Positions 1-62,955 of a stretch of 64,000 nt of DNA are shown piece by piece. The stretch comes from an uncultured Verrucomicrobiae bacterium (GTDB taxonomy: Bacteria; Verrucomicrobiota; Verrucomicrobiia; Chthoniobacterales; UBA10450): contig CAVYXA010000001.1 in assembly GCA_963772365.1 (NCBI GenBank), positions 704,001 through 768,000 of the forward strand, in the 5' to 3' direction. The translations under genes and the position numbers were made by a program. The notes under the pieces were generated by a model, which saw nothing but the letters and a program-made list of their open reading frames with translations, had not been told where the DNA came from and did not search any database. The first letter of the stretch is position 1; every line of letters starts with the position of its first letter.

Positions 1-3000
1 GGACCGGACTTACAACTTGAAGTGGCGGCGCTTTACCGGCTGCCTTGGGTTCCGTATTGGCGAGGAGTGGTTAAGTTTCTCGGAGCGCATTCCGAGAAGG
101 TCATAGAGCTTGCGCCGGAAGAAATCGCCGACGTTTGTCTTCTTTGGTTGTCGCTTCACGGGTTGCTTACTTCGGGAATGAAAGAGGCGGCGCAGCTCGC
201 GGTTGATAGCGCGCGCCGTCTGTACCGCAGTGGAGAACGCTGGCACGGCAGTCATCGCCGCCACCGCGATGTCTCTCCCGAAGAGAAGATCTGCCAGGCT
301 TTGCTCGCGGCCGCGCCCGAGATGCCGACTGAGGTGGGCGAACTTGCGCTCAAACTCAGTGGACGACGACATCCTGATGAAGAAGACAACTTGCCGAAGG
401 ATGACGAAAGGCCGCGGTCGAGATCACTCACGCATTCTTACGGAGCGCTGAAGCCATGGCCGGAAGGCCCGCAATGTCGCGGTGCGGAAGTTTTCCGCAA
501 AGCGTTTCTGAGTGGCAATCACGCTACTCCGTTTATTCGCACTCTTCCTGAAGTCGCCGCCGAAGTGATGTTCGCGGTCTTGCTCAGTCTGCCGCGTGAG
601 GGTTGGGATCCCCGTGACCGAATGAGTGGCGATTTGGATGAGCATGGTTTTCAAGGCGGCGATTTTCGTTTTCAATCGCCACTCTGGATCAGCGGCCCGT
701 TTTTGCATTTCCTTCGCATCAATCCGGCCGTCGCGCTGCCCGCAATCATTCGGTTGGTGAACTTTGCCACCGACCGCGCCTATGAATTGGGCGAGGACTA
801 TCGCCAGCACGTGGAAGTTCCGGTCACGATCGGCGGGCAAACGCATTTGTGGCGCGGTCATCAGTTTTCCTACCTTTGGCCACAGGGGCACGTCTTCGGT
901 CCCGACGCGATCGGATGCGCGCTGCTCTCGCTCGAAAAGTGGTTCTATTTATTGCAGGATGAAAAGCAGCCGATCGAGGAACATATCGCGACCATCTTGC
1001 GCGACAGTCGCTCTATCGCTCTGGCAGCGGTATTAATTTCTGTCGGCAAACGACAGCCCGATCTTTTCCTCGGCCCGCTTCGCCCGATGTTGGCGGCGAT
1101 CGACTTTTATCTGGATCGAGGAATATTTGCACAATCGAGCGGAAGGCGGCTATCGGACTTCATCCTTTTGCGAGCGATCCGAAGCGATTGTCGAGGTCTG
1201 GCGCGAATGGGTTCACATGCCGCACCGCAAAGAAGCATTCGGCAGTCTCGCCTTGCGCAAATTTCTCAGCGATCCGAAATGGCGCGAAGCCATCGCCGAG
1301 CTAAGGCAAGATCTGGCAGACGAGAATTGAAGCGGCGACGCCGGAGAATCCTGCGCCCGCTTGGCTGCCACGAATCGCGTCGCAGTTCGATTTACAGAAT
1401 TGGCACACCGAGCAGCGCGAGAACGATGTGCTGATTGCCTACGATCCACCGTCGAGTTTGCCTCGACCGACGCCGGAGGAAATGGAGCGCTTCAATCGGC
1501 TGCAGCTCCTAACCTTACTGCCGTTTCAATGCCGTCAGGTCTTGATGGGCGAAGCGGAATGTTCCGAGAAGCAGATGATGGAATGGTGGTCGCAACTGGA
1601 ATACTGTGCGCTCGCTTTCTCCTGATGAAGACGAGCGCGGCTTCCGCGATGTTGAGGATGCGCTTTGCGGAATAGTCGCCGTTGCCGTGGTAAAACATCG
1701 CCAGTGGCTTGCCGCTGATCCAGCGCGCGAGAAAGAGGCGTTGTCGATCTTGGCAGCGGTCGGTCGGCAGCCGCCAAAGCCATTCTGGTATGTGGAGGAC
1801 GACACCACTGATTTCAAATGGGACAGCTTCGCGGCCTGGGCGTTGACAACTTTGTGGTGCGAGCAACCCGATGATCCAATGTGCTTCAGGCGGTCGGTGC
1901 GCTGGTGTTATGGGATCGGAATCTCGTTGTCTCGCGAGTGATGGCCATCGCTGCCAAACATCGTGAAAGAGCTCGGCTGCACATTTTGACCGGCTCTGGC
2001 GCACACCATTCGTTATGCGCCCGCGCGACATCGAGCGCGGATGGAGCGCCATCTTCCCGAGAAAACATTTGATCGCGATGCATGGGTAAGCGCGCATCTG
2101 GAGAAATTTGTTTCAGGAAAAACAGAGCCACTTCCCAAAACTGGACGGAGTTGCTTGAGCTCGAAGCGAGTCGACGCCGAAGATCCGCGCGTCGACCGCG
2201 GCTCAGATATCGGACATATGTGCGCCGCCTTAGATTGGGCGGAGGATCTTTCCGACGCTCGCGATGCGGGAGAGCGTCAGCGATGGTTGAATTACCATCG
2301 GCAAATTCTTCTCTGCACGTTGACACGCATCGAGGAACTCATCCGATCACAGGCGCCGCCAGAACCATCTTATGATGTTCAACAATATTGGCCCTATGAT
2401 GACGAGCGACGAATGTTAGAGCGAGTTGCGCGCTCGTTGCCCGTCTGGCTCCGGGTGAAGACCATAAGGCATTGTGGGAGCCCATCCTTGCTTTGGGTTG
2501 TCCAGGTGGACGATGGGTCGACGCTTTTATCGGCCATTGGTTGATTTATGCCGCTGGAGACGAAGAACCGAGTCCATCATTTCCGGAGCAATGGCTTGCC
2601 ATGCTCACCTACGCGGAAAGTTCGCCGACGTGGAAGCTGCGAAGTCGCAGCCCTTCCGCATCACGCGATCTCTGGCACGAGCTGCTTGGTTTTTCGGTTT
2701 ACTCCAGCGACTTCTGGAACGAAAAGCTCGCCCCTGCCGTTGAAGCTGCGCGCGAATTCCATGAACGATGGGCTCGCGCGCACGTCAGCGACGATGACGA
2801 CGCACGTTCTTTCATCCAATTCCTGATGACGCCGGCCGGGCGGCGTTTGCGCGTCGATGGCTTGCATTTACTGCACGAAAAAGTTCCGATCGATAACCAA
2901 TATTTTTGGAACGAAGACAGCATCCGAGACGCCTTCGCCAGATTTTTGCGGCTCCTACAGCAAGAGCATTGGAACGAGATTGCGCACAATCACAGCGCAA

Positions 3001-3134
3001 GAGATGCGTTCATGGCTTTCGCCCTAAAGCTCGGCGCATTACAGCATCCGCTCGGCAGCGAAGTACTCGACGCTCGCCGGAAGCCGTCTCGGGCAGGAAG
3101 CGAACGCATAACACATTGTTTCGACCGCCGGTAG
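1..3134 (+). CDS. Large helical-repeat protein, C-terminal ~1000 aa, 5' end outside window; possibly the sensor region of a STAND/AVAST (Avs4-like) NTPase; split by several frameshifts
   Basis: Consecutive overlapping + ORFs (22-1434, 1127-1330, 1428-1625, 1606-1941, 1881-2072, 2041-2544, 2472-3134) form one Trp/Leu-rich protein. Segments such as GPFLHFLR...IIRLVNFAT...ALLSLEKWF...SRSIALAAVLISV resemble, from recall, Avs-type C-terminal regions. No NTPase motif lies within the window. Confidence 0.45.
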
Positions 3135-3151
3135 ATAATCGACTGACTACC

Positions 3152-5121: not shown

Positions 5122-5194
5122 CGATTGTCGATCTTAGCAGAAAGTTCGTTTCGGCGAGACGCCCAAACCCACGCCCGAGCCGGGCGCGCTACCC
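5119..5194 (-). promoter_or_regulatory. REP-like element plus putative extended -10 promoter (TGCTAAGAT) 9 nt upstream of the ATG
   Basis: 5119-5170 is near-identical to 5916-5969. The minus strand reads ...CGAACTTTCTGCTAAGATCGACAATCGATG, with no Shine-Dalgarno. Confidence 0.5.
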
Positions 5195-5918: not shown

Positions 5919-6774
<856 letters not shown>

Positions 6775-9551: not shown

Positions 9552-10276
9552 GCCGCTTTCGCGAGCGACTCTTCGTATTCAACAGCGTCACGCACTTCCT
9601 CTCGCTGGACCTCATACCATCGCGCGACCATTTCGACTGAGTTTGCTTTCACGCTACGCGCAAGTGTCGTGGCAGGAACACCGGATTTAGCAACTGTTGG
9701 CTGACCGAAGTTCCGACGGGGATCGACAACAATTTGTCGATCTTTGCCGAGGGGCCACCAAATGATTTCATCTCCAGAGAACTCGAGCTCCTTTAGAAAA
9801 TTCTGCACGATACGCCTAAACTCTCCTTGCTCAGTGACGAGATTTATGAGCGCTTCATCAGAATCCTCCCGCGCTTGCTTCAGCAGAATGTTTTTGCCGT
9901 CCGTTGCAATTCGCTTCGAGCAAAAGGGGTGTGTCGTCTGTAATTCCTTCTGAGCCTTGGTGTGCGCGCGGCGCATCGTCGTCCAGCTGACCCCTGCTTT
10001 GATGAATGCGTCAACGAATCTTAGCTCCAGCAAATCACGAAAACTGAGCGCTAGTTTGTCATCGATTGGTTCGATATCCATCTGCCAAACTGCTTCGGAA
10101 TGGCGAACTGATTCGCCACGGCGAAAATAGTACCCCTTAATCCAGCGGCGAATTTTACCCGCGGGTATGCGAGTAAGCCGTGCCGCCTCAGAGATGCTGT
10201 AGAGTCCGGTGTTCAGGAGTTTGGATCGTCGGTCGTGCACCGCTGACAATGAAGCCGGTGCCGTGCCTGAATGCAA
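9548..10276 (-). CDS. HTH + DUF433 antitoxin (VapB45-like)
   Basis: GLYSISEAARL...RRWIKGY; SFRDLLELRFV; IVVDPRRNFGQPTV...EEVRDAVEYE. Confidence 0.85.
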   Translation of the reverse strand: MHSGTAPASLSAVHDRRSKLLNTGLYSISEAARLTRIPAGKIRRWIKGYYFRRGESVRHSEAVWQMDIEPIDDKLALSFRDLLELRFVDAFIKAGVSWTTMRRAHTKAQKELQTTHPFCSKRIATDGKNILLKQAREDSDEALINLVTEQGEFRRIVQNFLKELEFSGDEIIWWPLGKDRQIVVDPRRNFGQPTVAKSGVPATTLARSVKANSVEMVARWYEVQREEVRDAVEYEESLAKAA

Positions 10277-10388
10277 TCCTGCTTTTGGCTCTGGGGCTCA
10301 CCTGGTCTGCTCCCCGCGCATAAGCGTCGAGCGGGACTCTACGTTTTTCGCACGCAGGGTGACCAGCGTCTAGTCGACAATGTCGATC

Positions 10389-12558
<2,170 letters not shown>

Positions 12559-14401: not shown

Positions 14402-15739
14402 TCACAGACCACTCGGGAACGTCTCCTCGACTTCGCCCGCTTCCCATTCAGCGCTGCGCTCCAACGGTTCGACCGCGCGTGTGTGATCATAATGAAGGAT
14501 GCCGTCGAATTGATTCGGCAAAGACGCATAAAAATAATGGCTGACCCTTTCCGTTTCCGGACGATAAATCACACCAATAGCGCGTTCGAGCCGGTCGATC
14601 CGCAATCGCGACGCGAGATCCGTATCATCGCGCAGTCGCAAAAAGAAATTTGGAACATCGACATCGTGAAACAGCGCTTCGTAACTTTCCGTCAATGCTG
14701 GCCGGACATTCTTTCGTTCCGCCGGTGCATCCCAGTCGGACGCCGCCATCACTGTGCCATGATATGTGGTAAATCCGAGCGAGACCGCAGCTTTGCCAAA
14801 ACGTTGCCGCACCAGCTGTCCAAGATTCAACTCGCCGCGTTCACTCATTTGTGTCGCCCGGGCATCGCCCAGATGTGAGTTATGGGCCCAGACGATAATC
14901 CGGGCGGGTCGGGAAGTTTTTTGTGATTTGTCGAGATGTTTTGTTAAGCTCTCCAGCGAATCCATCATGTGGGTATCGCGCAGATTCCAGGAATTAAACT
15001 CGCGGCGAAACATGTTCCGGTAATATTCCTCGGCATCCCGAACGACCAGCGCGTTCTGCTCGGCGCAAAAATAGGCGTCGGCGGCGATTTGTCCGTCGCG
15101 CTGCAGGTATTCCATCGCTTTCATCCGCAGCGCGATCAGTTCCTTTACTACTTCTTCCTCGCAACCAGGGGTCAGTCCCGAGCCGGTCGCCCAACCGTAG
15201 GTCTGGATCTCCGGTCCAAAATGATCGAAACAACCATAATGATGACGGGCCCGACGAGCTGCCTCGGAGTCGACTTTACTTAAATAATCGAGAACCGCTT
15301 CGATCGATGAACGCAAACTGTAGAGATCCAGCCCGTAAAATCCGCACTTCTCCGCATCAGAAAGGCGCTCTCCGTTGTGCTCACGTAACCAGCCGACAAA
15401 ATCGAGCACATCGGCGTTCCGCCACATCCATTGCGGGAAACGTTTGAAACCGCTCAACGCTTCCACACTGTCCAGATCCTGACTGACACCGCGAACGAAA
15501 CGATTTACCCGATAGGCATCCGGCCAATCGGCTTCTACTGCAACGCCGTTAAAGCCGTGCTCTTGAATCAGCAGTTTGGAAACCTGCGCCCGAATCCGAT
15601 AGAACTCGTGCGTCCCGTGACTTGCTTCTCCAATCAGAACAAACCGGGCATCACCGATAAGCTCGAGGACAGGATCGAAATCGCCGGGCGATCCGACCAG
15701 TGGTTCTGCCTTCGTCCTAATAAGATCGACATCGTTCAT
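14402..15739 (-). CDS. Erythromycin esterase family protein
   Basis: LIGEASHGTHEFY, VEADWPDA, WMWRN, VWAHNSHLGDARAT, ERAIGVIY. Confidence 0.92.
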   Translation of the reverse strand: MNDVDLIRTKAEPLVGSPGDFDPVLELIGDARFVLIGEASHGTHEFYRIRAQVSKLLIQEHGFNGVAVEADWPDAYRVNRFVRGVSQDLDSVEALSGFKRFPQWMWRNADVLDFVGWLREHNGERLSDAEKCGFYGLDLYSLRSSIEAVLDYLSKVDSEAARRARHHYGCFDHFGPEIQTYGWATGSGLTPGCEEEVVKELIALRMKAMEYLQRDGQIAADAYFCAEQNALVVRDAEEYYRNMFRREFNSWNLRDTHMMDSLESLTKHLDKSQKTSRPARIIVWAHNSHLGDARATQMSERGELNLGQLVRQRFGKAAVSLGFTTYHGTVMAASDWDAPAERKNVRPALTESYEALFHDVDVPNFFLRLRDDTDLASRLRIDRLERAIGVIYRPETERVSHYFYASLPNQFDGILHYDHTRAVEPLERSAEWEAGEVEETFPSGL

Positions 15740-17120: not shown

Positions 17121-18071
17121 TCATTCTGAATCCGTTGTCGCTGGCTGTTTCACATCGGCATCCGATTTTTCTCCGACCCGCTTGGCGTGAGTTTCCGGCA
17201 CAATCCTCACACCATAACGGCGGGCATAAACTTGAGTAAATTCCGCTCCCAGGAAACTGATGAGAGCGGAGTAATAAACCCAAATCAGAAGAATAACGAG
17301 AGAACCCGCTGCGCCAAACGCGCTCGCAGTTGCCGTCTGCCCGATATAAACACCAAGCAAATATTTACCGCTGGTAAAAAGCGCCGCGCTCACAGCCGCC
17401 CCGATCCATACGTCTTTCCAGCGAATCTGAACGTCGGGAAGATACTTATAGATCATGGCAAAGAGCGCGCCGATAACGAGGAAAGAGACGATGATGTTCA
17501 ATGCCTGCCAGAATGCGGGCATGCCGCTCACGCCTTCCATGTAGCCTTGCGCAGCGGAAATACCGGCGCTGATCACGAGCGAGACTATTAAAATAAATCC
17601 CACACCAATTGCGATCCCAAAGGAACGCAATCGATCGAGCACGAGTTGCAGAATTACACCGCGCTTCGGGTTTGCCTGAACGTCCCAGATTTTGTTCAAC
17701 GCAGCCTGCAACTCGGAAAAAACACAGGATGCGCCAAGCAGGAGAGTCACTACGCCGGTGAGAATTGCCCAAACGCTTTTGCCGAACCCACTCGACGCCT
17801 CCATCACATCACGGATCGCCTTTGCCCCGCGCGCGCCAACCAGCTTTTGAATTTCCGATGTGATTCGATCGATCGCTGTTTCTCGCGCGTAAAAGAAACT
17901 GGCGATGCCAGCAACAATCAGCAGCACCGGCGCGATGGAAAAGAGTGTGTAAAACGCCAGGGAGGCAGCCAGGCGAAACGTGTCATCGTACCACCATTCC
18001 TGGAAAGTGATCTTCGTCACTTGCCAGACTTCTCCCAGCTTTGCGCGAAACGAATTGTCGATCTTGTTCAT
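17121..18071 (-). CDS. YihY/BrkB family membrane protein
   Basis: AASLAFYTLFSIAP, YKYLPD, GAAGSLVILLIWVYYS, GAEF. Confidence 0.93.
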   Translation of the reverse strand: MNKIDNSFRAKLGEVWQVTKITFQEWWYDDTFRLAASLAFYTLFSIAPVLLIVAGIASFFYARETAIDRITSEIQKLVGARGAKAIRDVMEASSGFGKSVWAILTGVVTLLLGASCVFSELQAALNKIWDVQANPKRGVILQLVLDRLRSFGIAIGVGFILIVSLVISAGISAAQGYMEGVSGMPAFWQALNIIVSFLVIGALFAMIYKYLPDVQIRWKDVWIGAAVSAALFTSGKYLLGVYIGQTATASAFGAAGSLVILLIWVYYSALISFLGAEFTQVYARRYGVRIVPETHAKRVGEKSDADVKQPATTDSE

Positions 18072-46082: not shown

Positions 46083-48657
46083 CTAAAGTGGCGCAACCCG
46101 GTCCACGTTGCCTGAAACCTCCAGTTGCTGCTGCTCTCGCATGCTTCTCCGGTTGCGGCGCACCACCCGCTGAAGACCGGCCCGGCTGGCGGCAAGATCG
46201 ACAAGCTCGGCGACGCGCGATTTCAAAGCGCGGGCACGAGTCGCCAGAAAAACAAGAAACAAGGAATACGGAATGATGAACCAAAGATCGACATGAGAAA
46301 TGTTGAGTTGCCGATAAATTAGCAGGCTCAACGCAATCATATTGAAAATGACAGTCGTTGGGACGAGACGGCTGCGCAGGCGCACGCGCGTGAGTCGTTT
46401 CACTCCGCTGTGATCTTCGGTTACTGTTTGCAAAACGACGCTCCACCAGAAATTTCCGTAGATCTGGATATCCCAATCGTTCCAACCCGTATCCGGGGAA
46501 TAGCGCCAATCCTCTTCGTTAAGCAATCGAAAGATTTCACCGAGCAGATGATGGCGATCTCTCCCTTCCTCGCTCCAAAATGCTCGGCGCATGCTCCATG
46601 CAAACTTTGCTCGGGCAGGCAGATGTTCGTGTGCTCGAATCACGTTGCGCGGTGTCCGTTTGAAATGGAGCCACGTGAAATAGCGTGACCAGCCGCGAAT
46701 GAGCGGTTGCACGAAAGCCAGGACCATGACCAGCAGTCGCGCATGAACCGTATCGAATTTCGGTTCGATGTGCGCCCGCACCATATAAGAGAGAGCCACG
46801 CAAAACGTGCCGCCTAACATCACATACGGCACGATCCGCAAACCGGGCAGAAAAATTCCCAGACCGAAAAGAAAAGCCGTCAATGCAAACCATTCGATGC
46901 TGCTCAAATAGGCAGCCACGTCCGATTGTGGCGTGCGATACATCGACTGAAAGAAACCTTCGCCAAAGATTCCGTGGTAAATGATCGGCCGGTTTAGAAA
47001 CCAGCTGAACCGCGGCTCGCCGTAAATCTGTCCCCGCCATTTTGCCGTCCCAGTTGGACCAAAGAAAATCAGATGTTTGAAACGCAGCAATGATTCCGCT
47101 TCGCCATAGCCATGCTGCTGGTTGAAAAATGCCCGCAACGTAAAACGTCGATGATGCCACACGATCGCAGCGGGACTGAATGCAATTACGCCGCCGGCTT
47201 GTTGAACGCGCCAGCAAAAATCCACGTCGTCACCGGCTTTGCGATACTCAGGATCAAATCCGCCAACGAGATCAAACGCCCATCGGTAAAAGGCCATGTT
47301 ACAGCCCGGGATATGTTCCGCGATGGTGTCCGTAAGCAGGACGTGACTTGGGCCGCCGGGCGCAGCCGCCACGCACGCCTGAATCCAGTTTTGCGCCAGC
47401 GGGGGGATATTAGGCCCGCCCACGCCGGCATAATCACCGCTGACAAGAGTGCCGATTAAATAAGCGAGCCAATCGACATCGGCCATGCAATCCGAATCGG
47501 TATAAACCAGGACCTCGCCTTTCGCCCCGGCGGCTCCGGTGTTGCGCGCGTGGCTCAACCCGTGATTTTCCTGATGAATGTAGCGGACGTTTGGAAACTG
47601 CGAGGCAACATAGGCTGTATCATCCGTCGATCCGTCATCGACCAGGATCACCTCATATTCGGGATAATTGAGTTTGCCTAACGATTCAAGACAGGCTGCC
47701 AGAGTTCGGGCACCGTTGTAGGAACAAACAATCACCGATGCAAACGGCGCGCGGGACAGCGGCGGATGCGGAGCGGCGCCGTTGGTGGCAAACTTCTCCT
47801 TGAGCGCCTGAAACGATTTCTTCGGTTTGCGTTCGCGCGTCACGATCCCGAAAGCCCAGTCGTCGATCTCGCGACCCCCCGTGAACCATTCGTCCGTCCA
47901 GGAGAAGAAAATAGTTCCGGCCAAACCGCATTTGACCACGCTATCGACATGCCAGGCCAGGATCTCGGCTTGTTCCTCCTGCGAATGACGAATGGTGTCC
48001 ATCCCGAACTCGCCCAAAATTATCGGCCGTTTCGTCGGTCAAATTTTGCAACCGCAACAAATAACGTTCGAAGTCGCGCTGATTGTGCAGATAGACGTTG
48101 AAGCAAAAGAAATCGACATTTTGCGGAAGTAGATATTCCGTCGGCGGATAGGTTGCGTAGGAAAAAAGCACGCCTGGATCGGCCTCCCGCCCAACCCGGA
48201 TTAACTTCTCCACAAATTCAGTTACTCGCCGCACACCCAACCAGCGCGCCATCGTGCTAGGAATTTCGTTGCCAACGAGGTAGCCGAAGAGGGCCGGATG
48301 GCCCGCGTTTGCTTTCACGGACGCGCGGATTGATTCGACGATCTCGTCCCTCATTTTTCTTTTGCGCAAAAACTCCAGATGCCGCGGCCATGGCAAGGTG
48401 ACCATAACGCGCATTCCAGCGGCCTGACAACGGTCGAGAAACCAGCGCGGGGGCACATGATAAACGCGAATCGTGTTGAGCCGGACATCTTGCATCAGGG
48501 CAAGGTCGACATCGACTTGCTCGGGCGATCCGAAGGTACCTCCGTCTGCTTCCGGCTTGAACGGCCCGTAAGTTGTGCCTTTGACGAAAAATTTCCTGTC
48601 GCCCTCAAAGAAGAATTTGGCGGTCGGATGAAGCCGCAACTTTCCGTTCGTTGTCAC
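46083..48657 (-). CDS. Fusion of a GH2-like TIM barrel, a GT2 glycosyltransferase and C-terminal TMs; frameshift near 48020-48035
   Basis: KGTTYGPF, VGNEIP, FNVYL, GEFG (clan GH-A-like NE and EFG motifs), then VDDGSTD, TDSDC, GDDVDFCWR. Confidence 0.85.
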
Positions 48658-50525: not shown

Positions 50526-50810
50526 ATGCAAAACGGATGCTGTGTCGCTACAGCTTCAGCGTTGAGAGGCGCGATTCCTGCGGTAGTGTGCGTCGGGATG
50601 TTTTGGATCATTGGGTGTCTGAAATGGGCGATCGTCGGGTTCATCGTCGCGTTTGCGTTGATGAAACTGTACGAGGCCAGCCACATTTATGACGATATTC
50701 CCAAGCCGAAGTTTAAGGTCCGTCAGGCCAGACGGGCCGCGTTTGTATTGTCGATCTTCGCCGCGATGCTCTCCGCGCTGGTCTGGGTGATTGTCCAAAA
50801 GTGGGACTAG
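50526..50810 (+). CDS. Small membrane protein
   Basis: Three hydrophobic segments; start uncertain. Confidence 0.5.
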   Translation: MQNGCCVATASALRGAIPAVVCVGMFWIIGCLKWAIVGFIVAFALMKLYEASHIYDDIPKPKFKVRQARRAAFVLSIFAAMLSALVWVIVQKWD

Positions 50811-53281
50811 GCCGGAGTTGAGGCGACCTTCTTTTTCGCGCGCGGCTTTTTCGGCTCAAACTCGAATCCGACCTTTCCATTCTCCAATTTCAGATAGGCG
50901 GAGAATGGACGGCCCTTCTTGGAGATGAATTTGTGCAGCAGGTCGGTCTTGCCGGTAGCGATTAACTTCTGCGCCTGCTCTTTTGGAATCTCGCGATGCA
51001 AAATCGATTTGCCGATGCGAAAGCTGCACGTCTTGGGAGTCGCGACTGCATTTTCGCAGGCATACGCGCGGTCCAAGACATACACCTGTCCCTTCTGGCA
51101 AATCGGACACACCCCCAAGCTTTCCTGTTTTTCCTTGTCGATCTTCTGGTCGGCGCCGATTCCGTTTTCGCCGAAATCAAACTGCGGTTTCTTTTCTTCA
51201 CCCAGCCGGACGATGGCTTCGAACGCTCGCCCCAATTTGCTGCGAAAACCGCGGAGCGGGCCGACTCGGCCTTTCGCGAGCAGCTCTTCGACTTCCTCGG
51301 GCGTGAACTGGCGTGAAGCCATCGTCTTCCACATGAGCCAGTCGCAGTTTTTGCAGCGAAATGTTTTATAATCTTCCTTGATCGGACCGCCGCCACAGTT
51401 TGGACATTTTGCCTCGATCGTCGCGTATTCGCCGTGGATTTCTTCGCCACGGAAATTGCGGACCTTCTCGACGATCTCGCGAGTCAGGCCGCGGATGTCT
51501 TCCATGAAATGGTTTCGATCCAATTTGCCGTGAGCCATTTCCTGGAGCCGGAACTCCCATTCACCAGTGAGCTCCGGTGTGGAAAGAACGTCCGTACCGA
51601 GATTGCGCAGGAGAGTGATCAGTGAAAGTCCTTTAGCGCTTACGATCAGCTCCCTCCCTTGTCGTTCGAGATAACCATCGGCGAGCAGCCCCTCGATGAT
51701 TTGAGCGCGAGTAGCCGGTGTACCCAAGCCGCGCTCCCGCATCGCTTCCCGCAATTCCTCGTCTTCGACGAGTTTTCCGGCGCCCTCCATGGCCGAAAGC
51801 AGCGTGGCTTCTGTGAAACGCGCCGGAGGTTTCGTTTCGTTCTCTTTGATCTCGATCTTCAAGACGCTGGCCGATTCCCCTGATGACACTGGGACAACCG
51901 ATTGCTCGTCCTGGCCCGCGGCTTCACGGCCGTAAACCGCCAGCCAGCCAGGATCGACAACCACTTTACCCTCCGTCTTGAACGGCTCACCTTCGACGCG
52001 GGTGATCCGCGTCGTTACTTCAAACTGCGCCGGCGGATAGAAGACGGCGATAGTGCGTCGCGCGACCATGTCGAAAATCTTTTTCTCGAACTCGTCAAGG
52101 TGCGCCGGGGAAGCGCCAGTCGGGATGATCGCATGATGGTCGCTCACTTTGGCGTTGTTAAAGACACGTTTGATCGGCTTGACCCAGTTGTTCTGCATTG
52201 CCTTGCCAGCATGAGCAGCCAGTGCGGGATCCTCAAAGCTCGACATTACTGTGCGGACTTGAGCGAGATTATCTTCGGGAAGATACCGCGAATCCGTCCG
52301 AGGATACGTGAGCACCTTGTGTTTTTCGTAAAGGGACTGCGCCAGTTGCAACGTGCGCCGCGCGCTGAGGCTGAATCGACTATTGGCTTCTCGTTGCAGC
52401 GTAGTGAGATCGTAAAGCAGCGGCGACGCCTGCGTAGTCGGCTTCTTTTCTTCTGTAACAATGCCGGTTTTGCCCGCGCATTTTCGTTCAATCTCAGCGG
52501 CGCGCTCCCGCATCCAAATTCGTTCCGCCCGCGCGTCCTCGTCCTCGCCTTTCTTAAAATTTTGGTCGAACCAACGTCCTGGATAGTTCCCCGCTTCAAC
52601 TTTGAACTCTCCGTGGACCTCAAAATAAGGCCGTGGTTTGAACGACCTGATCTTCTCTTCTCGCCCTGTCAGGATCGCCAGCGTGGGCGTTTGCACTCGA
52701 CCCGCGGCAGTTTTTTGAAAGCCACCTGTGCGCGAATTAAATGAAGTTAACGCTCGCGTGGCATTGATACCGACCAGCCAATCGCTTTCCGCACGCGACA
52801 ATGCTGCATCCGCTAACGGCTGCATTTCCCCTTCGGATCGCAAATGATTAAATCCTTCGCGGATCGCCTCCGGCGTCATCGATTGCAGCCAGAGCCGGCG
52901 GGTCGGTTTTTTCGCGCCGCTCCAGCGAATAGTATTGCGGAAAATCAGTTCGCCTTCGCGGCCGGCGTCGCAGGCATTGATGATTTCCGTAATATCGGAT
53001 CGTTTGATCAGTTTCTTCAGGACCTGTAATCGGCCTTTGTTTTTCTCGATCGGCGAAAGATCGAAATGGTTCGGCAGCACCGGCAGGTTTTCCAGGTTCC
53101 ACTTTCCCCGTTTCACCTCCGCCCCTTCCGGTGGCACGATCTCAACCAAGTGCCCAACCGCCGACGAAATCACATACTGGTCGTTCTCGTAGAAGTCCTT
53201 ATCATGATGAAACTTGCCGAGGACGCGGGCGAGGTCTCGGGCCACACTCGGTTTCTCCGCGATGATGAGGGACTTGGACAT
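50807..53281 (-). CDS. topB: Type IA DNA topoisomerase (topoisomerase III-like) with C-terminal zinc ribbons
   Basis: IAEKPSVA, NACDAGREGELIF, GRVQTPTL, TYPRTDS, GLGTPATRA. Confidence 0.88.
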   Translation of the reverse strand: MSKSLIIAEKPSVARDLARVLGKFHHDKDFYENDQYVISSAVGHLVEIVPPEGAEVKRGKWNLENLPVLPNHFDLSPIEKNKGRLQVLKKLIKRSDITEIINACDAGREGELIFRNTIRWSGAKKPTRRLWLQSMTPEAIREGFNHLRSEGEMQPLADAALSRAESDWLVGINATRALTSFNSRTGGFQKTAAGRVQTPTLAILTGREEKIRSFKPRPYFEVHGEFKVEAGNYPGRWFDQNFKKGEDEDARAERIWMRERAAEIERKCAGKTGIVTEEKKPTTQASPLLYDLTTLQREANSRFSLSARRTLQLAQSLYEKHKVLTYPRTDSRYLPEDNLAQVRTVMSSFEDPALAAHAGKAMQNNWVKPIKRVFNNAKVSDHHAIIPTGASPAHLDEFEKKIFDMVARRTIAVFYPPAQFEVTTRITRVEGEPFKTEGKVVVDPGWLAVYGREAAGQDEQSVVPVSSGESASVLKIEIKENETKPPARFTEATLLSAMEGAGKLVEDEELREAMRERGLGTPATRAQIIEGLLADGYLERQGRELIVSAKGLSLITLLRNLGTDVLSTPELTGEWEFRLQEMAHGKLDRNHFMEDIRGLTREIVEKVRNFRGEEIHGEYATIEAKCPNCGGGPIKEDYKTFRCKNCDWLMWKTMASRQFTPEEVEELLAKGRVGPLRGFRSKLGRAFEAIVRLGEEKKPQFDFGENGIGADQKIDKEKQESLGVCPICQKGQVYVLDRAYACENAVATPKTCSFRIGKSILHREIPKEQAQKLIATGKTDLLHKFISKKGRPFSAYLKLENGKVGFEFEPKKPRAKKKVASTPA

Positions 53282-54527: not shown

Positions 54528-54980
54528 TCAGAACGGAATCTCGTCCTCGTCCGGCTGGGCTGAGGCCGCTGGTTTCGGCGGCGCTGCCGGCCGACCCGAT
54601 TGTCGATCTTCGTCGCTTGCATCAGTAGTGGCTCCGGAACCACCCGGACGGCTGCCCAACAATTGTAGCGCCTCTCCGATCACCTTGAGCTTGGAACGCT
54701 TTTGCCCAGTTTGCTTATCGTCCCAGGAATCGAGTTGAAGCCGGCCTTCAATGAAAACCGGCCGACCCTTTTTCAAATATTCGCCCGCGATCTCGGCCAG
54801 ACGAGACCAGAGCACGACATCGACATATGTGACCTCCTCGCGCTTCTCTCCGCCTTCCGTCGTATAGACGCGGTTTACGGCAAGACCGAGATCACACACT
54901 GCGCTGCCTTTTGGCGTATAGCGTACCTCTGGATCCCGGGTAAGGTTTCCAAGCAAAATGACTCTGTTGAAGCTGGCCAT
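54528..54980 (-). CDS. ssb: Single-stranded DNA-binding protein
   Basis: NRVILLGNLTRDPE...IEGRL...DEIPF. Confidence 0.97.
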   Translation of the reverse strand: MASFNRVILLGNLTRDPEVRYTPKGSAVCDLGLAVNRVYTTEGGEKREEVTYVDVVLWSRLAEIAGEYLKKGRPVFIEGRLQLDSWDDKQTGQKRSKLKVIGEALQLLGSRPGGSGATTDASDEDRQSGRPAAPPKPAASAQPDEDEIPF

Positions 54981-56747: not shown

Positions 56748-57690
56748 CTTGCTTTGCTCCGTTGTCGATCTTGAACAGCGACGATACGGATTCGTCATTG
56801 TGAATCCGCTTGATCCCCTCGCCCAGAAGCTCGGAGACGCAAAGCACCGTGACTTTAAAGTTTTCCACGGTGCGCACCGGCGTGCTGTTGGTCGTTATTA
56901 ATTCCGCGATTTCGGATTTTTGCAACCGGGTAATTGCGACATCCACCAGCACGGCGTGGGCGACTCCGGCGTAAACATCCAGTGCGCCGTTCTTCTTCAA
57001 CAGAGCTGCCGCAGAACTCAGCGTGCCTGCGGTCTCAGTGAGATCATCTACCAAAAGCACATCGTGATCGCTCACGTCACCAATGAGATAAAGCGCTTCC
57101 GTCTCAGTCGGACTTTTTCGTTCCTTGGCCACAATGGCCAGATTTGCCCCAAGCGCGTCGGCATAGGCTGAAGCCATTTTCAGCCCACCGATGTCGGGCG
57201 AAACCACGACCATTTTCCCGGTCAATCGTTTTCGAAGATATTTGATCAAAACGGGGAGCGAATAGAGGTGATCGACCGGGATATCGAAAAAGCCCTGCAC
57301 CTGTTGCGCATGCAAATCCATCGTTAGCACTCGATCCACGCCCGAAGCGCGGAGAAGGTTCGCGACCAATTTTGCCGTAATAGGTACCCGTGGTTGATCT
57401 TTCCGATCCTGGCGCGCATAACCAAAAAAAGGAATTACAGCGGTGATTCTATCGGCGCTTGCCCGTCGGGCTGCATCCACCATAATCAGTAGTTCCATCA
57501 GGTTCTGATTAGTAGGCGGACACGTGGGCTGGATGATAAAGACGTCGTGCCCGCGAATGTTTTCCTCGATCCGGACGTATGTCTCTCCGTCTGGAAAAGA
57601 TTTAACCGTCGCCTGCCCCAGCGGCACGCCGATATATTTGCAGATGCGCTCGGCTAAGTCGCGGTTGGCCGAACCGCTGAAAATCTTCAT
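56731..57690 (-). CDS. prs: Ribose-phosphate pyrophosphokinase
   Basis: FPDGE, YARQDRK, DLHAQQ, VSPDIGG, VDDLTETAGT. Confidence 0.97.
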   Translation of the reverse strand: MKIFSGSANRDLAERICKYIGVPLGQATVKSFPDGETYVRIEENIRGHDVFIIQPTCPPTNQNLMELLIMVDAARRASADRITAVIPFFGYARQDRKDQPRVPITAKLVANLLRASGVDRVLTMDLHAQQVQGFFDIPVDHLYSLPVLIKYLRKRLTGKMVVVSPDIGGLKMASAYADALGANLAIVAKERKSPTETEALYLIGDVSDHDVLLVDDLTETAGTLSSAAALLKKNGALDVYAGVAHAVLVDVAITRLQKSEIAELITTNSTPVRTVENFKVTVLCVSELLGEGIKRIHNDESVSSLFKIDNGAKQDGKTS

Positions 57691-59329: not shown

Positions 59330-59330
59330 C

Positions 59331-61229: not shown

Positions 61230-61823
61230 ATGAAGAAATTCCTATCGGCTGGATTTTTACTTAGCACTCTTTCGACGAACGCTTACGCGCTCGACCTCAC
61301 TCCCAGGGAAATCCCGGCGGCCCACGACGGCCCTCCCGTAAAACGCTATTTCTTTCAGGATAGAGATAAGCGTGTGGTTTTCCGAGTCGACACAAACATG
61401 AGCGTCAGCGGAGAAAACAACATGGCGATGTTCCAATTTCGCGATTTGCCAGGCGCCGAGATGAAACTCATTCCATCGCCGAGACACCCGGACTTGCCGT
61501 TCGATGAAAAAGGTCTCGATGATTATCGTGCGGTCGCCCGTGGATTGGTCCCGGCAAACGCAACTCAGGTAGAATTCATCGAAGAGCGAGCCGAGGCAAT
61601 TCCTATCAACGGTTGGACGAGTTACGAGTTCGTCTTCATCTATAATCGGGCGGGCTCCCCTTGCCGCCACAGCATCACGTTCCTGAACTACACTGACAAG
61701 CAGCAGATTCTCGTGCAAGTGAGTGCTCATGGCGAAGATTTCGATAAGGCTTACGCCCGGGGTTATCACGTCCTCAATTCGCTGTCCGAGATGCAGTCAG
61801 CTGGCGCGGATGGTCCGACTTAA
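61230..61823 (+). CDS. Secreted hypothetical protein
   Basis: Signal peptide MKKFLSAGFLLSTLSTNAYA; co-oriented with the pilin-like cluster. Confidence 0.75.
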   Translation: MKKFLSAGFLLSTLSTNAYALDLTPREIPAAHDGPPVKRYFFQDRDKRVVFRVDTNMSVSGENNMAMFQFRDLPGAEMKLIPSPRHPDLPFDEKGLDDYRAVARGLVPANATQVEFIEERAEAIPINGWTSYEFVFIYNRAGSPCRHSITFLNYTDKQQILVQVSAHGEDFDKAYARGYHVLNSLSEMQSAGADGPT

Positions 61824-62007
61824 TCGGCGTTCCCGGCATCGCCAGCAGGCCATTCTGAAGCCTCAATCGTTCGGCCTGTGAGTTGTTGACAGCAAAATAG
61901 ATCAAAGTCATCAACCAAACTTTCCGATCGCATGATCTACAGTCAGGCGATTGGTTTGTTGCCAACGGCCGAACTTCCGGCAAAATTACTCCAGCCGCAT
62001 CGAACCC

Positions 62008-62955
62008 ATGAGCACGACCGACGTTATTCCAATTGAGCGTCCCACGACTAACTCGAAAATTTTCGCTCACTCGCGCTGGGATGTTCTACCCGCGGCGGCT
62101 GGGCTGTTCCATCTAGCGTATTTTATCGGTCTCTTCCTTCTCTATCCGCACGCGCCGCTCTGGCTAATGCTGATTCTGGGGTTCTTTTATTCCTTGATGG
62201 TCAATGCCAACATCAATGGAGTCGGGCACAACTTTATCCACAACCCGTTTTTCCGGTCGAAGTTTTTGAACCGATTTTTCGGCGTCACGCAATCGATCGC
62301 CTGCTGTTTCTCGCAAACAATGTACGACGCGGTTCACATGCAGCACCACAAAGGGAATTCAGATCTAAAGGATGAGAAAGGCGATACCATCGATTGGTTG
62401 TCGATCTACCGCCACGGCCACGAGGGCGAAGCAGAAAATCCGTGGCGCTACGTGTTTCTGAGTTTCTTTCGCGACGATGTCGGTGCCATTCGCAAGGAGT
62501 TGCGCAAACGTAACAACGGTGATGTCACCTGGGGAAATCTCGAGCTGGCGGCGTTCGCAGTCACGCTCTTTGTCATGTTCCTCTTCAACTGGCGTTACGT
62601 GATTTTCTTTTTCCTGCCGTTTTGGTATCTCGGTCACTGCTTCAGTTACTTGAATGGTTATTACCGGCATTACGGCGCTAATCCCGATAAACCTATTGCG
62701 TGGGGCGTGAGCAGTTACGGCAAAATTTATAACTGGCTGTTTTTCTATAATGGCTATCACGCCGAACATCATTTCCGGCCCAAAGTTCACTGGACTAAAA
62801 TGGAAAAGTTCCATCACAGCATTGTCGATCTTCAGAGGCGGGAAGGCGTTCGCACCATTCGCCGCGCGCATATGCTCGGCTTTTTGGATCCCAATCTACC
62901 CAAGCGCGGGCCTCGAGCATCCGCGATGGAAAACGCTGCGCCGTCAGCGCCTTAA
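62008..62955 (+). CDS. Fatty acid desaturase family protein
   Basis: His boxes HNFIH, HMQHH, HAEHH. Confidence 0.9.
   Translation: MSTTDVIPIERPTTNSKIFAHSRWDVLPAAAGLFHLAYFIGLFLLYPHAPLWLMLILGFFYSLMVNANINGVGHNFIHNPFFRSKFLNRFFGVTQSIACCFSQTMYDAVHMQHHKGNSDLKDEKGDTIDWLSIYRHGHEGEAENPWRYVFLSFFRDDVGAIRKELRKRNNGDVTWGNLELAAFAVTLFVMFLFNWRYVIFFFLPFWYLGHCFSYLNGYYRHYGANPDKPIAWGVSSYGKIYNWLFFYNGYHAEHHFRPKVHWTKMEKFHHSIVDLQRREGVRTIRRAHMLGFLDPNLPKRGPRASAMENAAPSAP

What the first reader, a model, noticed from the sequence alone, without database searches (positions are those of the whole stretch)
1742..62832. Strongly over-represented 10-mer AAGATCGACA: candidate DNA-uptake-sequence-like motif
Seen by manual scan: at least 24 exact copies. 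On + (AAGATCGACA): 15722, 18833, 20549, 24122, 27428, 40417, 45336, 46194, 46284. On - (TGTCGATCTT): 1742, 5126, 5923, 9735, 10381, 18056, 30237, 31718, 33128, 39210, 50749, 51136, 54601, 56763, 62823. Many one-mismatch copies (AGGATCGACA, GAGATCGACA) also occur. Base composition alone predicts roughly 0.1 copy in 64 kb. It is read as KID, VDL, LSI, RST and DRQ in different genes and is also intergenic, so one peptide preference cannot explain it. It occurs in recR, ssb, topB and prs, and at the head of all three thiC-linked cargo blocks. Established: Neisseria DUS and Pasteurellaceae USS are 9-12-mers with this kind of dispersed, frame-independent distribution. Inference: an uptake, recombination or nucleoid-protein signal; dprA and pilin-like genes are in the same window.
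Basis: partly seen in the sequence, partly recalled or inferred. Interest (0 to 1): 0.8.

Follow-up and report, generated by a model that had tools for sequence, protein, structure and literature searches.

The report
Hyper-abundant DNA word in soil Verrucomicrobia
A ten-letter DNA word is written about a thousand times through the genes of this uncultured soil bacterium and its relatives, much like the 'self' tags that Neisseria and Haemophilus use to take up their own DNA. Whether it serves DNA uptake here has not been tested.

Summary
Genome-wide, AAGATCGACA is the commonest 10-mer: 1,048 copies in 3.35 Mb, 211x base composition and 49x a third-order Markov model. It survives an amino-acid- and codon-preserving shuffle (891 genic copies against about 67). 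It is strand-symmetric without replichore polarity, Poisson-spaced and without conserved flanks. It distorts codon and tripeptide usage, is missing from accessory or foreign DNA, and is kept between relatives 3-5x better than other 10-mers. About 40 of 151 genomes of the same Chthoniobacterales family carry at least 300 copies (up to 4,653). Sister genera carry GCCTAACGA or CTAACGAGA instead, and 199 other Verrucomicrobiota have at most 53 copies. This is the signature of DNA-uptake sequences, and pilus, PilT, secretin, ComEC and DprA genes are present. Uptake itself is untested, and several results count against it: there are no terminator pairs, the family's only ComEA-like gene is a remnant here, two words coexist in some genomes, and two pilus candidates do not track the word. 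A HIP1-like word of unknown function or a repair-type drive remain live rivals. The scan met the sister word in other genomes before. I found no publication.

The parts
1742..1751 (-). exact copy, between my gene calls
5126..5135 (-). exact copy next to a diverged thiC 3'-end fragment; shares its flank with the copy at 5923
5923..5932 (-). exact copy next to the thiC C-terminal fragment ORF 6041-6727; duplicate flank of the copy at 5126
9735..9744 (-). exact copy in ORF 9548-10276 (-), sense strand, frame 1
10381..10390 (-). exact copy overlapping the 3' end of full-length thiC (10389-12515, -)
15722..15731 (+). exact copy, antisense, read as VDL in the erythromycin-esterase-family ORF 14402-15817 (-)
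18056..18065 (-). exact copy, read as KID in the BrkB-family ORF 17121-18071 (-)
18833..18842 (+). exact copy, VDL reading in the FAD-oxidase/CCG ORF 18089-21136 (-)
20549..20558 (+). exact copy, VDL reading in the same ORF 18089-21136 (-)
24122..24131 (+). exact copy, VDL reading in the TPP-enzyme ORF 22928-24718 (-)
27428..27437 (+). exact copy, sense strand, frame 2 (RST) in ORF 26877-27785 (+)
30237..30246 (-). exact copy, VDL reading in the flavin amine-oxidase-like ORF 29917-31350 (+)
31718..31727 (-). exact copy, KID reading in the AIRS_C fragment ORF 31347-31739 (-)
33128..33137 (-). exact copy between ORFs 32659-33090 and 33242-33946
39210..39219 (-). exact copy, sense strand, frame 2 in the glycosyltransferase ORF 38523-39881 (-)
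40417..40426 (+). exact copy inside frameshifted recR (about 40293-40864, -), VDL reading (..NYLVDLLEG..)
45336..45345 (+). exact copy, KID reading in the pseudouridine-synthase ORF 45090-46052 (+)
46194..46203 (+). exact copy, VDL reading in the glycosyltransferase ORF 46083-48017 (-)
46284..46293 (+). exact copy, VDL reading in the same ORF 46083-48017 (-)
50749..50758 (-). exact copy about 50 nt downstream of the topoisomerase ORF
51136..51145 (-). exact copy, KID reading in the type IA topoisomerase ORF 50807-53332 (-); the only one of 6 alignable sites kept exactly in the congener G001
54601..54610 (-). exact copy, sense strand, frame 1 (DRQ) in ssb 54528-54980 (-)
56763..56772 (-). exact copy, KID reading near the C-terminus of prs 56731-57711 (-); word-poor relatives have AACATCGAGAAC or AAGATTGATAAC here
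62823..62832 (-). exact copy, VDL reading in the fatty-acid-desaturase ORF 61951-62955 (+)

Best explanation
AAGATCGACA is a lineage-specific 'self' word of the DNA-uptake-sequence kind. Its strict core is ATCGA. Its flanks are looser (A[A/G][G/C] on the 5' side, CA[A/T] on the 3' side).

Proposed mechanism:
1. A surface or pilus-associated receptor binds double-stranded DNA that carries the word.
2. Type IV pilus retraction (PilT) brings the DNA through a secretin.
3. ComEC passes one strand into the cytoplasm.
4. DprA and RecA recombine it into the chromosome.
5. Because word-bearing alleles are taken up more often, mutations that create the word spread by recombination (a molecular drive). 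The word then builds up wherever proteins tolerate it.
6. Drift of the receptor's specificity gives the sister words GCCTAACGA and CTAACGAGA in other genera.

Shown here:
- hyper-abundance at the DNA level;
- strand symmetry;
- distortion of codon and tripeptide usage;
- absence from accessory DNA;
- retention between relatives;
- the distribution of the words across the family;
- presence of most uptake genes.

Inferred, not shown:
- that any DNA is taken up at all;
- that uptake prefers the word;
- the receptor;
- the drive.
For: 1. Abundance. There are 1,048 copies in 3.35 Mb. It is the top 10-mer and its core GATCGACA is the top 8-mer, with 2,371 copies. Observed over expected is 211x by base composition, 49x under an order-3 Markov model and 10x under order 5. 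The word read backwards occurs 3 times.

2. The signal is DNA, not protein. A codon- and amino-acid-preserving shuffle leaves about 67 of 891 genic copies.
- VDL is encoded by GTCGATCTT in 479 of 750 cases (64%) against 3.2% expected from codon usage.
- KID is encoded by AAGATCGAC in 322 of 445 cases (72%) against 10.2% expected.
- The tripeptides themselves are in excess (VDL 2.3x, KID 3.5x), while their reverses are not (LDV 0.83x, DIK 0.72x).

3. No conserved flanks beyond +10 (A/T 84%) and +11, so it is not a REP or MITE element.

4. Strand symmetry. There are 543 plus-strand and 505 minus-strand copies. On contig C1 the stretch with positive GC skew has 74+/65- and the stretch with negative skew has 120+/111-.

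5. Specificity profile. Single-base variants at positions 4-8 number 2-35 each, including at synonymous sites. Flank variants are tolerated (A2G 483, G3C 299).

6. Gaps in foreign or accessory DNA. Two high-GC segments (C1:1-63 kb, GC 0.69-0.71, and C3:774-833 kb, GC 0.68) and eight stretches of 19-24 kb with normal GC are nearly or wholly free of the word. The normal-GC stretches hold polysaccharide clusters, two identical IS3 copies, a TPR paralogue array and a stress island.

7. Retention between word-rich relatives. In alignments of 70-75% identity, 53 of 158 sites (34%) are identical, against 6.9% of 215,919 other 10-mers. At 75-80% identity, 58 of 182 sites (32%) are identical, against 9.7%.

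8. Distribution.
- About 40 of 151 family genomes have at least 300 copies and counts are consistent within genera, up to 4,653 in 2.9 Mb.
- 12 genomes of other families of the order have 0-19 copies.
- 199 other Verrucomicrobiota have at most 53.
- GCCTAACGA has at least 500 copies in about 46 of 151 family genomes, against about 25-110 for a control word.
- A g8 genome has CTAACGAGA 38 times in 200 kb, which is 29x expectation.

9. Machinery in this genome: ComEC, 3-4 secretins, four PilB-like and three PilT-like ATPases, about ten prepilin-like proteins, and DprA and Ssb in the window.
Against: 1. No terminator association.
- Density between genes is 0.23 per kb, lower than 0.33 per kb inside genes.
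- There is no excess in convergent or 3' spacers.
- Close pairs are fewer than chance (5 gaps under 50 nt against 17 expected) and show no preferred orientation.
- In Neisseriaceae and Pasteurellaceae about half of the uptake sequences lie in predicted terminators (abstract of bioRxiv 10.1101/2025.10.24.684340).

2. No ComEA.
- HHH_3 was not found in this genome (90% complete) or in its congener G001.
- In the family the only HHH_3 protein is a fusion of a staphylococcal-nuclease domain with the helix-hairpin-helix domain.
- Only a 45-aa remnant of that gene is left here, at the edge of an inserted island.
- Whole word-rich genera show no match (g1, g9, g17, g43, g44, g46, g47), while word-free G036 has one.
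- Synonymous core positions are still strict in this genome, so the word is being maintained without that protein.

3. ComEC (142 of 151 genomes) and PilT (150 of 151) do not separate word-rich from word-poor genomes. In G007, which has 2,607 copies, ComEC is split by a TGA.

4. Two words coexist in some genomes: G039 has 4,653 AAGATCGACA and 1,803 GCCTAACGA, and G017 has 1,104 and 585.

5. Density varies about tenfold within genera (g47 155-1,474; g10 74-622; GCCTAACGA in g6 160-2,425). On a prs gene tree the word-rich loci do not form one clade; well-supported branches force at least 4 changes.

6. The two pilus-cluster proteins I tested do not follow the word.

7. My searches found no report of natural transformation or uptake sequences in Verrucomicrobiota.
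Confidence: 0.4

Rival explanations
1. A HIP1-like word. This would be a hyper-abundant short sequence kept by selection for a function on the chromosome itself, for example the binding site of an abundant nucleoid or chromosome-organising protein, with no role in DNA uptake.
For: - The word lies mostly inside genes, at the same or higher density than between them, and there are no terminator pairs.
- The excess is 50-200 fold, and retention between genomes is above background. The abstract of PMC5861425 reports both for HIP1: 15-300 fold excess, and conservation within and between ORFs.
- Variant words occur in related lineages.
- The core contains GATCG, as HIP1 (GCGATCGC) does.
- The word is maintained in genomes that lack the ComEA-like gene.
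Against: - The word is not palindromic, whereas HIP words are palindromes by definition.
- No binding protein is known for HIP1 or for this word.
- Spacing is Poisson-like (CV 1.07). I did not test for periodicity at the 10-90 kb scale.
- The sister word GCCTAACGA has no GATC.
Confidence: 0.28
2. A sequence-directed repair or gene-conversion bias. This would work like very-short-patch repair tied to a methyltransferase, or like another sequence-specific nicking enzyme. Near-matches would be steadily converted into the word, and the driver gene would be gained and lost among species.
For: - The distribution is patchy, with tenfold differences within genera, as expected for a mobile driver gene.
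- The core overlaps GATC and TCGA.
- A weak D12-class methyltransferase match exists at C1:69505-70101.
- Elhai's study links HIP words to methyltransferases (abstract of PMC4390886, seen in the listing).
- The ratio of one-off to perfect copies differs strongly between genomes (0.24 to 2.4), as if the strength of the drive varies.
Against: - No Vsr-family endonuclease was found (the genome is 90% complete).
- A non-palindromic 10-mer is unlike the short targets known for such repair (from recall).
- One-off neighbours are not depleted but enriched: they number 2-483 each, against a median of 5 for 10-mers of the same composition.
- Accessory islands of normal GC content remain free of the word although they sit in the same cell.
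- The D12 match itself lies in a stretch that is free of the word.
Confidence: 0.15
3. A polar chromosome motif, such as a Chi site for a RecBCD or AddAB enzyme, or a KOPS-type guide for FtsK.
For: - The copy number per Mb is similar to that of E. coli Chi (from recall).
- The word is an 8-10 nt non-palindrome.
Against: - There is no strand switch between the stretches of opposite GC skew on contig C1 (74+/65- against 120+/111-).
- Overall the strands are even, at 543+/505-.
- RecC was not found. AddAB was not searched.
- A 200-fold excess is far above what is known for Chi or KOPS (from recall).
Confidence: 0.03
4. A by-product of amino-acid, codon or oligonucleotide composition (favoured peptides KID and VDL, or GATC/TCGA bias), or an assembly artefact.
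For: - Two frames, xVDL and KID, hold 691 of the 1,048 copies.
- AAG, ATC and GAC are common codons.
Against: - The shuffle that keeps proteins and codon usage removes more than 90% of the copies.
- Markov models up to order 5 leave a 10-fold excess.
- The VDL reading uses the rare Leu codon CTT (15% of Leu codons).
- The word is found in MAGs from many independent studies and assemblers (record titles; counts).
Confidence: 0.01

Closest known systems
DNA uptake sequences (DUS) of Neisseriaceae and their dialects (Frye et al. 2013, PMC3630211, abstract seen)
   Same: - A non-palindromic word of 10-12 nt.
- Hundreds to thousands of copies in both orientations.
- Family-restricted, with different 'dialects' in related genera.
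- Shapes coding sequences.
- Rare in foreign DNA.
- The host has type IV pili, ComEC and DprA.
   Different: - No inverted pairs in terminators.
- Density inside genes is at least as high as between genes.
- Two unrelated-looking words coexist in some genomes.
- No ComEA here.
- No receptor has been identified. ComP as the DUS receptor is from recall and was not tested here.
- The phylum is Verrucomicrobiota, where I found no reported transformation.
Uptake signal sequences (USS) of Pasteurellaceae (9-nt core AAGTGCGGT, about 1,300 copies in H. influenzae, often paired in terminator stems: passage of PMC5217627)
   Same: - A short core with graded flank preferences.
- A similar copy number per Mb in the densest relatives.
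- Preferred reading frames.
- The receptor is likewise still unproven in that family (abstract of PMC12616744).
   Different: - No AT-rich extended flanks beyond two positions.
- No terminator pairing.
- Uptake bias has been shown experimentally for USS (PMC3458573, abstract seen) and not for this word.
HIP1 (GCGATCGC) of cyanobacteria (Xu, Lawrence and Durand 2018, PMC5861425, abstract and outline seen; Elhai 2015, PMC4390886, abstract in listing)
   Same: - Hyper-abundance mainly inside genes.
- Conservation above background.
- Lineage variants.
- Unknown function.
- A shared GATCG core.
   Different: - HIP1 is a palindrome and this word is not.
- HIP1 has been linked to orphan methyltransferases and to periodic spacing. 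I did not test periodicity at the 10-90 kb scale, and I found no methyltransferase link here.
Chi and KOPS polar motifs
   Same: Short, over-represented, non-palindromic chromosomal words.
   Different: Those are co-oriented with replication. This word is not.

Membership tests
DNA uptake sequences (DUS/USS) | Genome-wide hyper-abundance of one short non-palindromic word, not explained by composition or coding | tested here: met
   1,048 copies; 49x an order-3 Markov model; 891 genic copies against about 67 after a codon-preserving shuffle.
DNA uptake sequences (DUS/USS) | Both orientations equally frequent, with no replication polarity | tested here: met
   543+/505- overall; 74+/65- and 120+/111- in the two GC-skew stretches of contig C1.
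DNA uptake sequences (DUS/USS) | Restricted to one family, with variant words (dialects) in related genera | tested here: met
   Whether AAGATCGACA and GCCTAACGA descend from one word is not shown. They share only A-N-CGA-N-A.
DNA uptake sequences (DUS/USS) | Frequent location as inverted pairs in transcription terminators (about half of copies, abstract of bioRxiv 10.1101/2025.10.24.684340) | tested here: not met
   5 gaps under 50 nt against 17 expected, with no orientation preference; intergenic density 0.23 per kb against 0.33 per kb in genes, with no excess in 3' spacers.
DNA uptake sequences (DUS/USS) | Full uptake machinery: type IV pilus with PilT and secretin, ComEA, ComEC, DprA | tested here: inconclusive
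   Pilus ATPases, secretins, prepilins, ComEC and DprA were found. ComEA (HHH_3) was not found. Only a 45-aa remnant of the family's nuclease-HhH fusion gene is present. The genome is 90% complete.
DNA uptake sequences (DUS/USS) | Preferential uptake or transformation by DNA that carries the word, through a dedicated receptor | not testable with these tools
   This needs cells or purified proteins. Two candidate pilus-cluster proteins do not track the word.
HIP1-like highly iterated palindromes | Palindromic word | tested here: not met
   The reverse complement of AAGATCGACA is TGTCGATCTT, which is a different word.
HIP1-like highly iterated palindromes | Sites conserved between genomes above background | tested here: met
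   34% against 6.9% at 70-75% identity, and 32% against 9.7% at 75-80% identity. The pairs come from 11 related loci and are not independent.
Chi / KOPS polar motifs | Orientation skew that switches at origin and terminus | tested here: not met
REP / MITE repeats | Longer conserved unit, usually palindromic and intergenic | tested here: not met
   no information outside positions -1 to +11; about 85% of copies lie inside gene calls.
VSP-type repair-driven word (Dcm/Vsr-like) | Vsr-family endonuclease with a cognate methyltransferase, and depletion of the one-step neighbours | tested here: not met
   no Vsr match; the one-step neighbours are enriched, not depleted.

The most novel reading that the evidence does not exclude
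The word is maintained by a sequence-specific process that is not classical DNA uptake. Candidates are a directed gene-conversion or repair system, or an abundant chromosome-binding protein. The driver gene would be gained, lost and re-targeted among genera of one of the most abundant soil bacterial families. That would account for four observations: words thrive without a ComEA-type gene, they avoid terminators, they coexist in one genome, and they vary tenfold within genera.
Probability: 0.3. Interest if true: 0.9.

Novelty: new variant of a known kind. Interest (0 to 1): 0.72.

Why it matters
Sequence-tagged 'self' DNA is known from only two proteobacterial families, and HIP1 of cyanobacteria is still unexplained after decades.

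This is a third, independent case, in a different phylum. It shows at least three words, clear turnover between genera, and hundreds of available genomes. That makes the origin and the driver of such words directly testable by comparative genomics.

If the word marks DNA for uptake, it would imply that relatives of Candidatus Udaeobacter, among the commonest soil bacteria and uncultured, exchange genes by transformation with a preference for their own kind. It would also suggest a practical trick for making them genetically tractable: add the word to the donor DNA.

In any case the words are sharp lineage markers. They can be used for binning, for spotting foreign or chimeric DNA in MAGs, and for dating acquisitions.

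Tried and rejected
1. Association with uptake genes. ComEC (142 of 151 family genomes) and PilT (150 of 151) are near-universal, so they say nothing about the word.

2. Receptor candidates.
- Full-length orthologues of pilin L236 (188 aa) occur in word-rich, GCCTAACGA-rich and word-free genera, and are missing from the word-rich g7, g11, g15 and g35.
- The 599-aa protein L244 of a minor-pilin cluster belongs to a patchy family with several paralogues and no relation to the word (93 of 151 genomes; none in g10 or g15).
- Other pilins were not tested.

3. ComEA. I looked for a link between the HHH_3 protein and word density.
- All genomes above 0.6 copies per kb belong to genera that have it.
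- The two densest genomes tested have few one-off copies per perfect copy (0.24 and 0.51). Four genomes without it have 1.0-2.4.
- The threshold was chosen after seeing the data, and the genera are related. The protein is a nuclease fusion, and many word-rich genera lack it. I keep this as a lead only.

4. Phage test. 80 IMG/VR contigs holding the 14-mer AAGATCGACAATCG were fetched, and none has 3 or more copies of the 10-mer.

5. Orthologous sites in the congener G001, which is about 76% identical in DNA. Of 8 window sites, 2 were not alignable, 1 was exact, 2 were one base off, 1 was two off and 2 had diverged. The sample is too small to use by itself.

6. A prs gene tree of 71 loci. Labels are only weakly clustered: the word-rich label needs 8 changes against 9.5 in shuffles, reached in 30 of 500 shuffles. 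A single gene and 20-kb samples are too noisy to give an order of events.

7. Enrichment in particular genes. 704 of 2,726 gene calls hold at least one copy, the maximum is 4, and the best Poisson p of 5e-4 is not significant over 2,726 genes. No functional test was possible.

8. Searches bearing on the rival explanations: Vsr and RecC were not found, and there was one weak D12 methyltransferase hit.

9. Literature. No paper in the library links an uptake sequence or a hyper-abundant word to Verrucomicrobiota. The four word strings occur only in unrelated primer or construct contexts in the 20 papers listed of 256.

Full report
**Observation**

The window is G000:C1:704001-768000, from a 3.35-Mb genome in 6 contigs (90.3% complete, 1.95% contaminated).

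100 dinucleotide-preserving shuffles gave a mean of 0.18 and at most 2. With one mismatch allowed there are 51 sites against 5.9 expected. The 27 near-copies are led by AGGATCGACA (10), GAGATCGACA (4) and AACATCGACA (4). Two copies (5126 and 5923) lie in a duplicated stretch beside diverged thiC 3'-end fragments, so 23 are independent.

The named genes are mostly right. Pfam confirms ssb, prs, dprA and a type IA topoisomerase. recR is present but frameshifted in this assembly. The 'pilin-like' genes are only weakly supported.

**Genome-wide statistics**

- The word is the commonest 10-mer of the genome (1,048 copies), and its core GATCGACA is the commonest 8-mer (2,371).
- Observed over expected is 211x for base composition, 49x for an order-3 Markov chain, 10x for order 5 and 1.7x for order 7.
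- Nothing is conserved around it except a weak A/T at +10, C/T at +11 and 'not A' at -1. It is therefore a bare word, not part of a longer repeat.
- With crude gene calls of my own (80.7% coding, made from long ORFs and a codon score), 440 copies are read as xVDL on the antisense strand and 251 as KID. A further 197 fall in the other four frames, 150 lie between genes and 10 on gene edges.
- This assembly has frameshifted genes, so 'between genes' is an overestimate.

**DNA, not protein**

Shuffling synonymous codons within each gene keeps every protein and each gene's codon usage. It lowers the counts from 353 sense and 538 antisense to means of 37.6 and 29.1 (30 shuffles, maxima 47 and 37).

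| Tripeptide | Occurrences | Codon triplet | Share using it | Expected from codon usage | Tripeptide excess |
|---|---|---|---|---|---|
| VDL | 750 | GTC-GAT-CTT | 479 (64%) | 3.2% | 2.3x |
| KID | 445 | AAG-ATC-GAC | 322 (72%) | 10.2% | 3.5x |

The reversed tripeptides LDV and DIK are at 0.83x and 0.72x. So the word has bent codon choice and, to a degree, the proteome.

At one site, the C-terminus of Prs, word-rich relatives read AAGATCGACAA. Word-poor relatives read AACATCGAGAAC, AAGATTGATAAC or AAGATCGATAAC.

The tolerance profile is sharp. Single-base variants at positions 4-8 (ATCGA) occur 2-35 times each, even at synonymous codon positions. A2G occurs 483 times, G3C 299, A1G 108, C9G 115 and A10G 106. 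The median 10-mer of the same composition occurs 5 times.

**Orientation and spacing**

The strands are even (543+/505-). The balance does not switch between the two stretches of contig C1 with opposite GC skew: 74+/65- at 100-500 kb and 120+/111- at 500-1,200 kb. This excludes Chi-, KOPS- or primase-type polar signals.

Spacing is close to Poisson: mean gap 3,070 nt, CV 1.07. Close pairs are fewer than expected (5 gaps under 50 nt against 16.8; 48 under 200 nt against 65.7) and have no preferred relative orientation (+- 14, -- 13, ++ 12, -+ 9).

Density is 0.23 per kb between genes and 0.33 per kb inside them. Convergent, tandem and divergent spacers hold copies in proportion to their length, and copies are spread evenly along genes. 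704 of 2,726 gene calls hold at least one copy, none holds more than 4, and no gene stands out.

**Where the word is missing**

- C1:1-63 kb (GC 0.69-0.71, against 0.55 for the genome) holds 2 copies.
- C3:773,762-832,895 (GC 0.68) holds none.
- Eight further gaps of 19-24 kb have normal GC.

Pfam shows that the normal-GC gaps are accessory clusters. They hold polysaccharide and O-antigen genes, two identical IS3-type copies, an array of TPR paralogues, a stress-protein island and a giant GH94 gene. The high-GC pieces hold ordinary metabolic and signalling genes of what looks like another organism. The word therefore marks 'native' DNA.

**Relatives**

The nearest named records are soil MAGs labelled Verrucomicrobiota, Chthoniobacterales and Candidatus Udaeobacter.

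AAGATCGACA in 151 genomes of the same family:
- About 40 have at least 300 copies (my count from the table).
- Counts are consistent within genera: g39 2,673-4,653, g7 2,607, g15 1,052-1,563, g35 522-1,588, g1 1,048 and 699.
- Other genera have 10-60 copies.
- Some genera vary widely: g47 155-1,474, g10 74-622.

Outside the family, twelve genomes of other families of the order have 0-19 copies, and 199 other Verrucomicrobiota have at most 53.

While counting k-mers in the 80 loci, I found a second bare word, GCCTAACGA, at about one per kb in four loci. In the family it has at least 500 copies in about 46 of 151 genomes, up to 4,336. A control word has about 25-110. This genome is at control level (86 against 65), and its congener G001 has 277.

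- Some genomes have both words (G039 4,653 and 1,803; G017 1,104 and 585).
- A g8 genome has a third word, CTAACGAGA(A): 38 copies in 200 kb, which is 29x expectation.
- A g36 genome shows no such word in 200 kb.
- The words share only the skeleton A-N-CGA-N-A, which could be chance.
- On a prs tree the GCCTAACGA-rich loci fall in one well-supported clade. The AAGATCGACA-rich loci do not form one clade; well-supported branches force at least 4 changes.

The rows for genera g3 and g14 rest on unpublished genomes (G003, G014). G008 and G147 are two of several genomes in their genera. No conclusion depends on them alone.

**Maintenance**

Among 11 word-rich loci, word sites are far better kept than other 10-mers.

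| Alignment identity | Word sites identical | Other 10-mers identical |
|---|---|---|
| 70-75% | 53 of 158 (34%) | 6.9% |
| 75-80% | 58 of 182 (32%) | 9.7% |
| 85-90% | 22 of 48 (46%) | 28.5% |

The pairs are related and not independent. Against the congener G001 (about 76% DNA identity), 1 of 6 alignable window sites is exact and 3 are one or two bases off.

**Machinery**

This genome has:
- ComEC;
- 3-4 secretins;
- four PilB-like and three PilT-like ATPases;
- about ten prepilin-like proteins;
- DprA and Ssb, in the window.

These are family-wide and therefore uninformative: ComEC is in 142 of 151 genomes and PilT in 150 of 151. In G007 (2,607 copies) ComEC is split by a TGA.

ComEA is the weak point.
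- HHH_3 is not found in this genome or in G001.
- In the family it reaches its cut-off in 84 of 151 genomes.
- It is not found in the word-rich genera g1, g9, g17, g43, g44, g46 and g47, and it is present in word-free G036.
- Where present, it is fused to a staphylococcal-nuclease domain.
- In this genome only a 45-aa remnant is left, at C1:675134-675268, exactly at the edge of the 19-kb stress island.

As a lead only: every genome above 0.6 copies per kb belongs to a genus that has this gene. The ratio of one-off to perfect copies is 0.24 (G039) and 0.51 (G007) with the gene, against 1.0-2.4 in G047, G000, G046 and G001 without it. But the synonymous core positions are still strict here, so the word is being maintained without that protein.

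**Reading**

The set of properties matches, point by point, what defines DUS and USS:
- a bare non-palindromic word;
- a 50-200 fold excess;
- strand symmetry;
- distortion of the proteome;
- absence from foreign DNA;
- retention between relatives;
- family restriction with variant words.

I take a biased-uptake-plus-recombination drive as the single most likely mechanism, with confidence 0.4. Four results speak against simple membership in that family:
- There are no terminator pairs, whereas about half of DUS and USS copies lie in terminators (abstract of bioRxiv 10.1101/2025.10.24.684340).
- There is no ComEA.
- Different words coexist in one genome.
- Density swings tenfold within genera.

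These results fit a HIP1-like word better. HIP1 is selected, mostly genic and of unknown function (PMC5861425, abstract and outline seen). Against that, HIP words are palindromes and this one is not. A repair-type drive is weakened by the absence of Vsr and by the enriched neighbours. Chi or KOPS and composition artefacts are excluded.

**Novelty**

I found no paper that links an uptake sequence or a hyper-abundant word to Verrucomicrobiota.
- One search returned 3 papers, none on this by title and abstract.
- One search returned 9, none relevant.
- One search returned 0.
- One search listed 15 of 542 papers, and none of those is on this by title and abstract.
- in the 20 papers listed, the word strings appear only in unrelated papers.

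The scan itself has met this before in other genomes of the group. Four notes concern GCCTAACGA or its complement, and one concerns a 10-12-base word at one copy per 1.3 kb. All five read it as uptake-like. I had found GCCTAACGA independently before reading those notes, and their reading is not independent evidence.

- counts of both words across the whole family, and a third word;
- the negative terminator, polarity and per-gene tests;
- the codon and tripeptide figures;
- the retention test;
- the finding that the family's only ComEA-type gene is a nuclease fusion, is absent from many word-rich genera and is a remnant in this genome.

Noticed in passing
window 26282, 34031 and 39239 (seed positions); 42 copies genome-wide: A MITE-like element of roughly 110-120 nt with terminal inverted arms of about 28 nt (TGTCATGTTGAGCGAAGCGAAACATCTC ... 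GAGATTCTTCGCTTCGCTCAGAATGACA) and a variable middle. Its seeds are the commonest 14-16-mers of the genome after the word itself.
   Followed up: partly
window about 39703-40864; 31347-32542; 34143-34660: Several genes are read in two or three frames: recR, a lipoyl-synthase-like gene, an AIR-synthase-like gene and a FAD/BBE oxidase. This looks like indel errors of a long-read assembly or like pseudogenes, and it inflates my 'intergenic' class.
   Followed up: partly
window 1-13000: Full-length thiC (10389-12515) is followed by two or three diverged copies of its 3' end (5202-5357, 6054-6727). Between them lie cargo genes: an EcoO109I-type restriction enzyme, a PIN_10 protein, DUF2283 and DUF433. 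This looks like serial integration of elements that each bring a replacement thiC end.
   Followed up: partly
G000:C1:1-63000 and G000:C3:773762-832895: Two terminal contig segments have 68-71% GC, against 55% for the genome, and almost none of the word. They carry ordinary metabolic and signalling genes. They are either chimeric joins with another organism's DNA in this MAG or large recent acquisitions.
   Followed up: partly
L249:763-1677 (G007) and L250 (G039); remnant at G000:C1:675134-675268: The family's only HHH_3 (ComEA-type) protein is a secreted-looking fusion of a staphylococcal-nuclease domain and a C-terminal helix-hairpin-helix domain. In this genome it has been reduced to a 45-aa fragment at the border of a 19-kb island.
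   Followed up: partly
window 57870-61823 and G000:C1:1130384-1134248: Two paralogous clusters, each with small prepilin-like proteins next to a large protein of about 600-670 aa with no Pfam family. The C-terminal 120 aa of the two large proteins are 59% identical. This large-protein family is patchy and has several paralogues across the bacterial family.
   Followed up: partly
L015, L017, L021, L057: Four contigs have Prs 85-87% identical to this Verrucomicrobiota gene, but sit in MAGs labelled Alphaproteobacteria, Nitrospirota, Pyrinomonadaceae and Solirubrobacteraceae. They are probably mis-binned contigs. The hyper-abundant words could serve as a check on binning.
   Followed up: no
G007:C9:459447-460251: ComEC of the word-dense genome G007 is in two pieces with an in-frame TGA. 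G055 and G155 also show split matches. This could be an assembly error or real decay.
   Followed up: no
G000:C3:397624-401724 (L109 8657-12757): Two identical IS3-family copies (HTH_Tnp_1 plus rve ORFs) lie 2.9 kb apart inside a 21-kb stretch that is free of the word.
   Followed up: no
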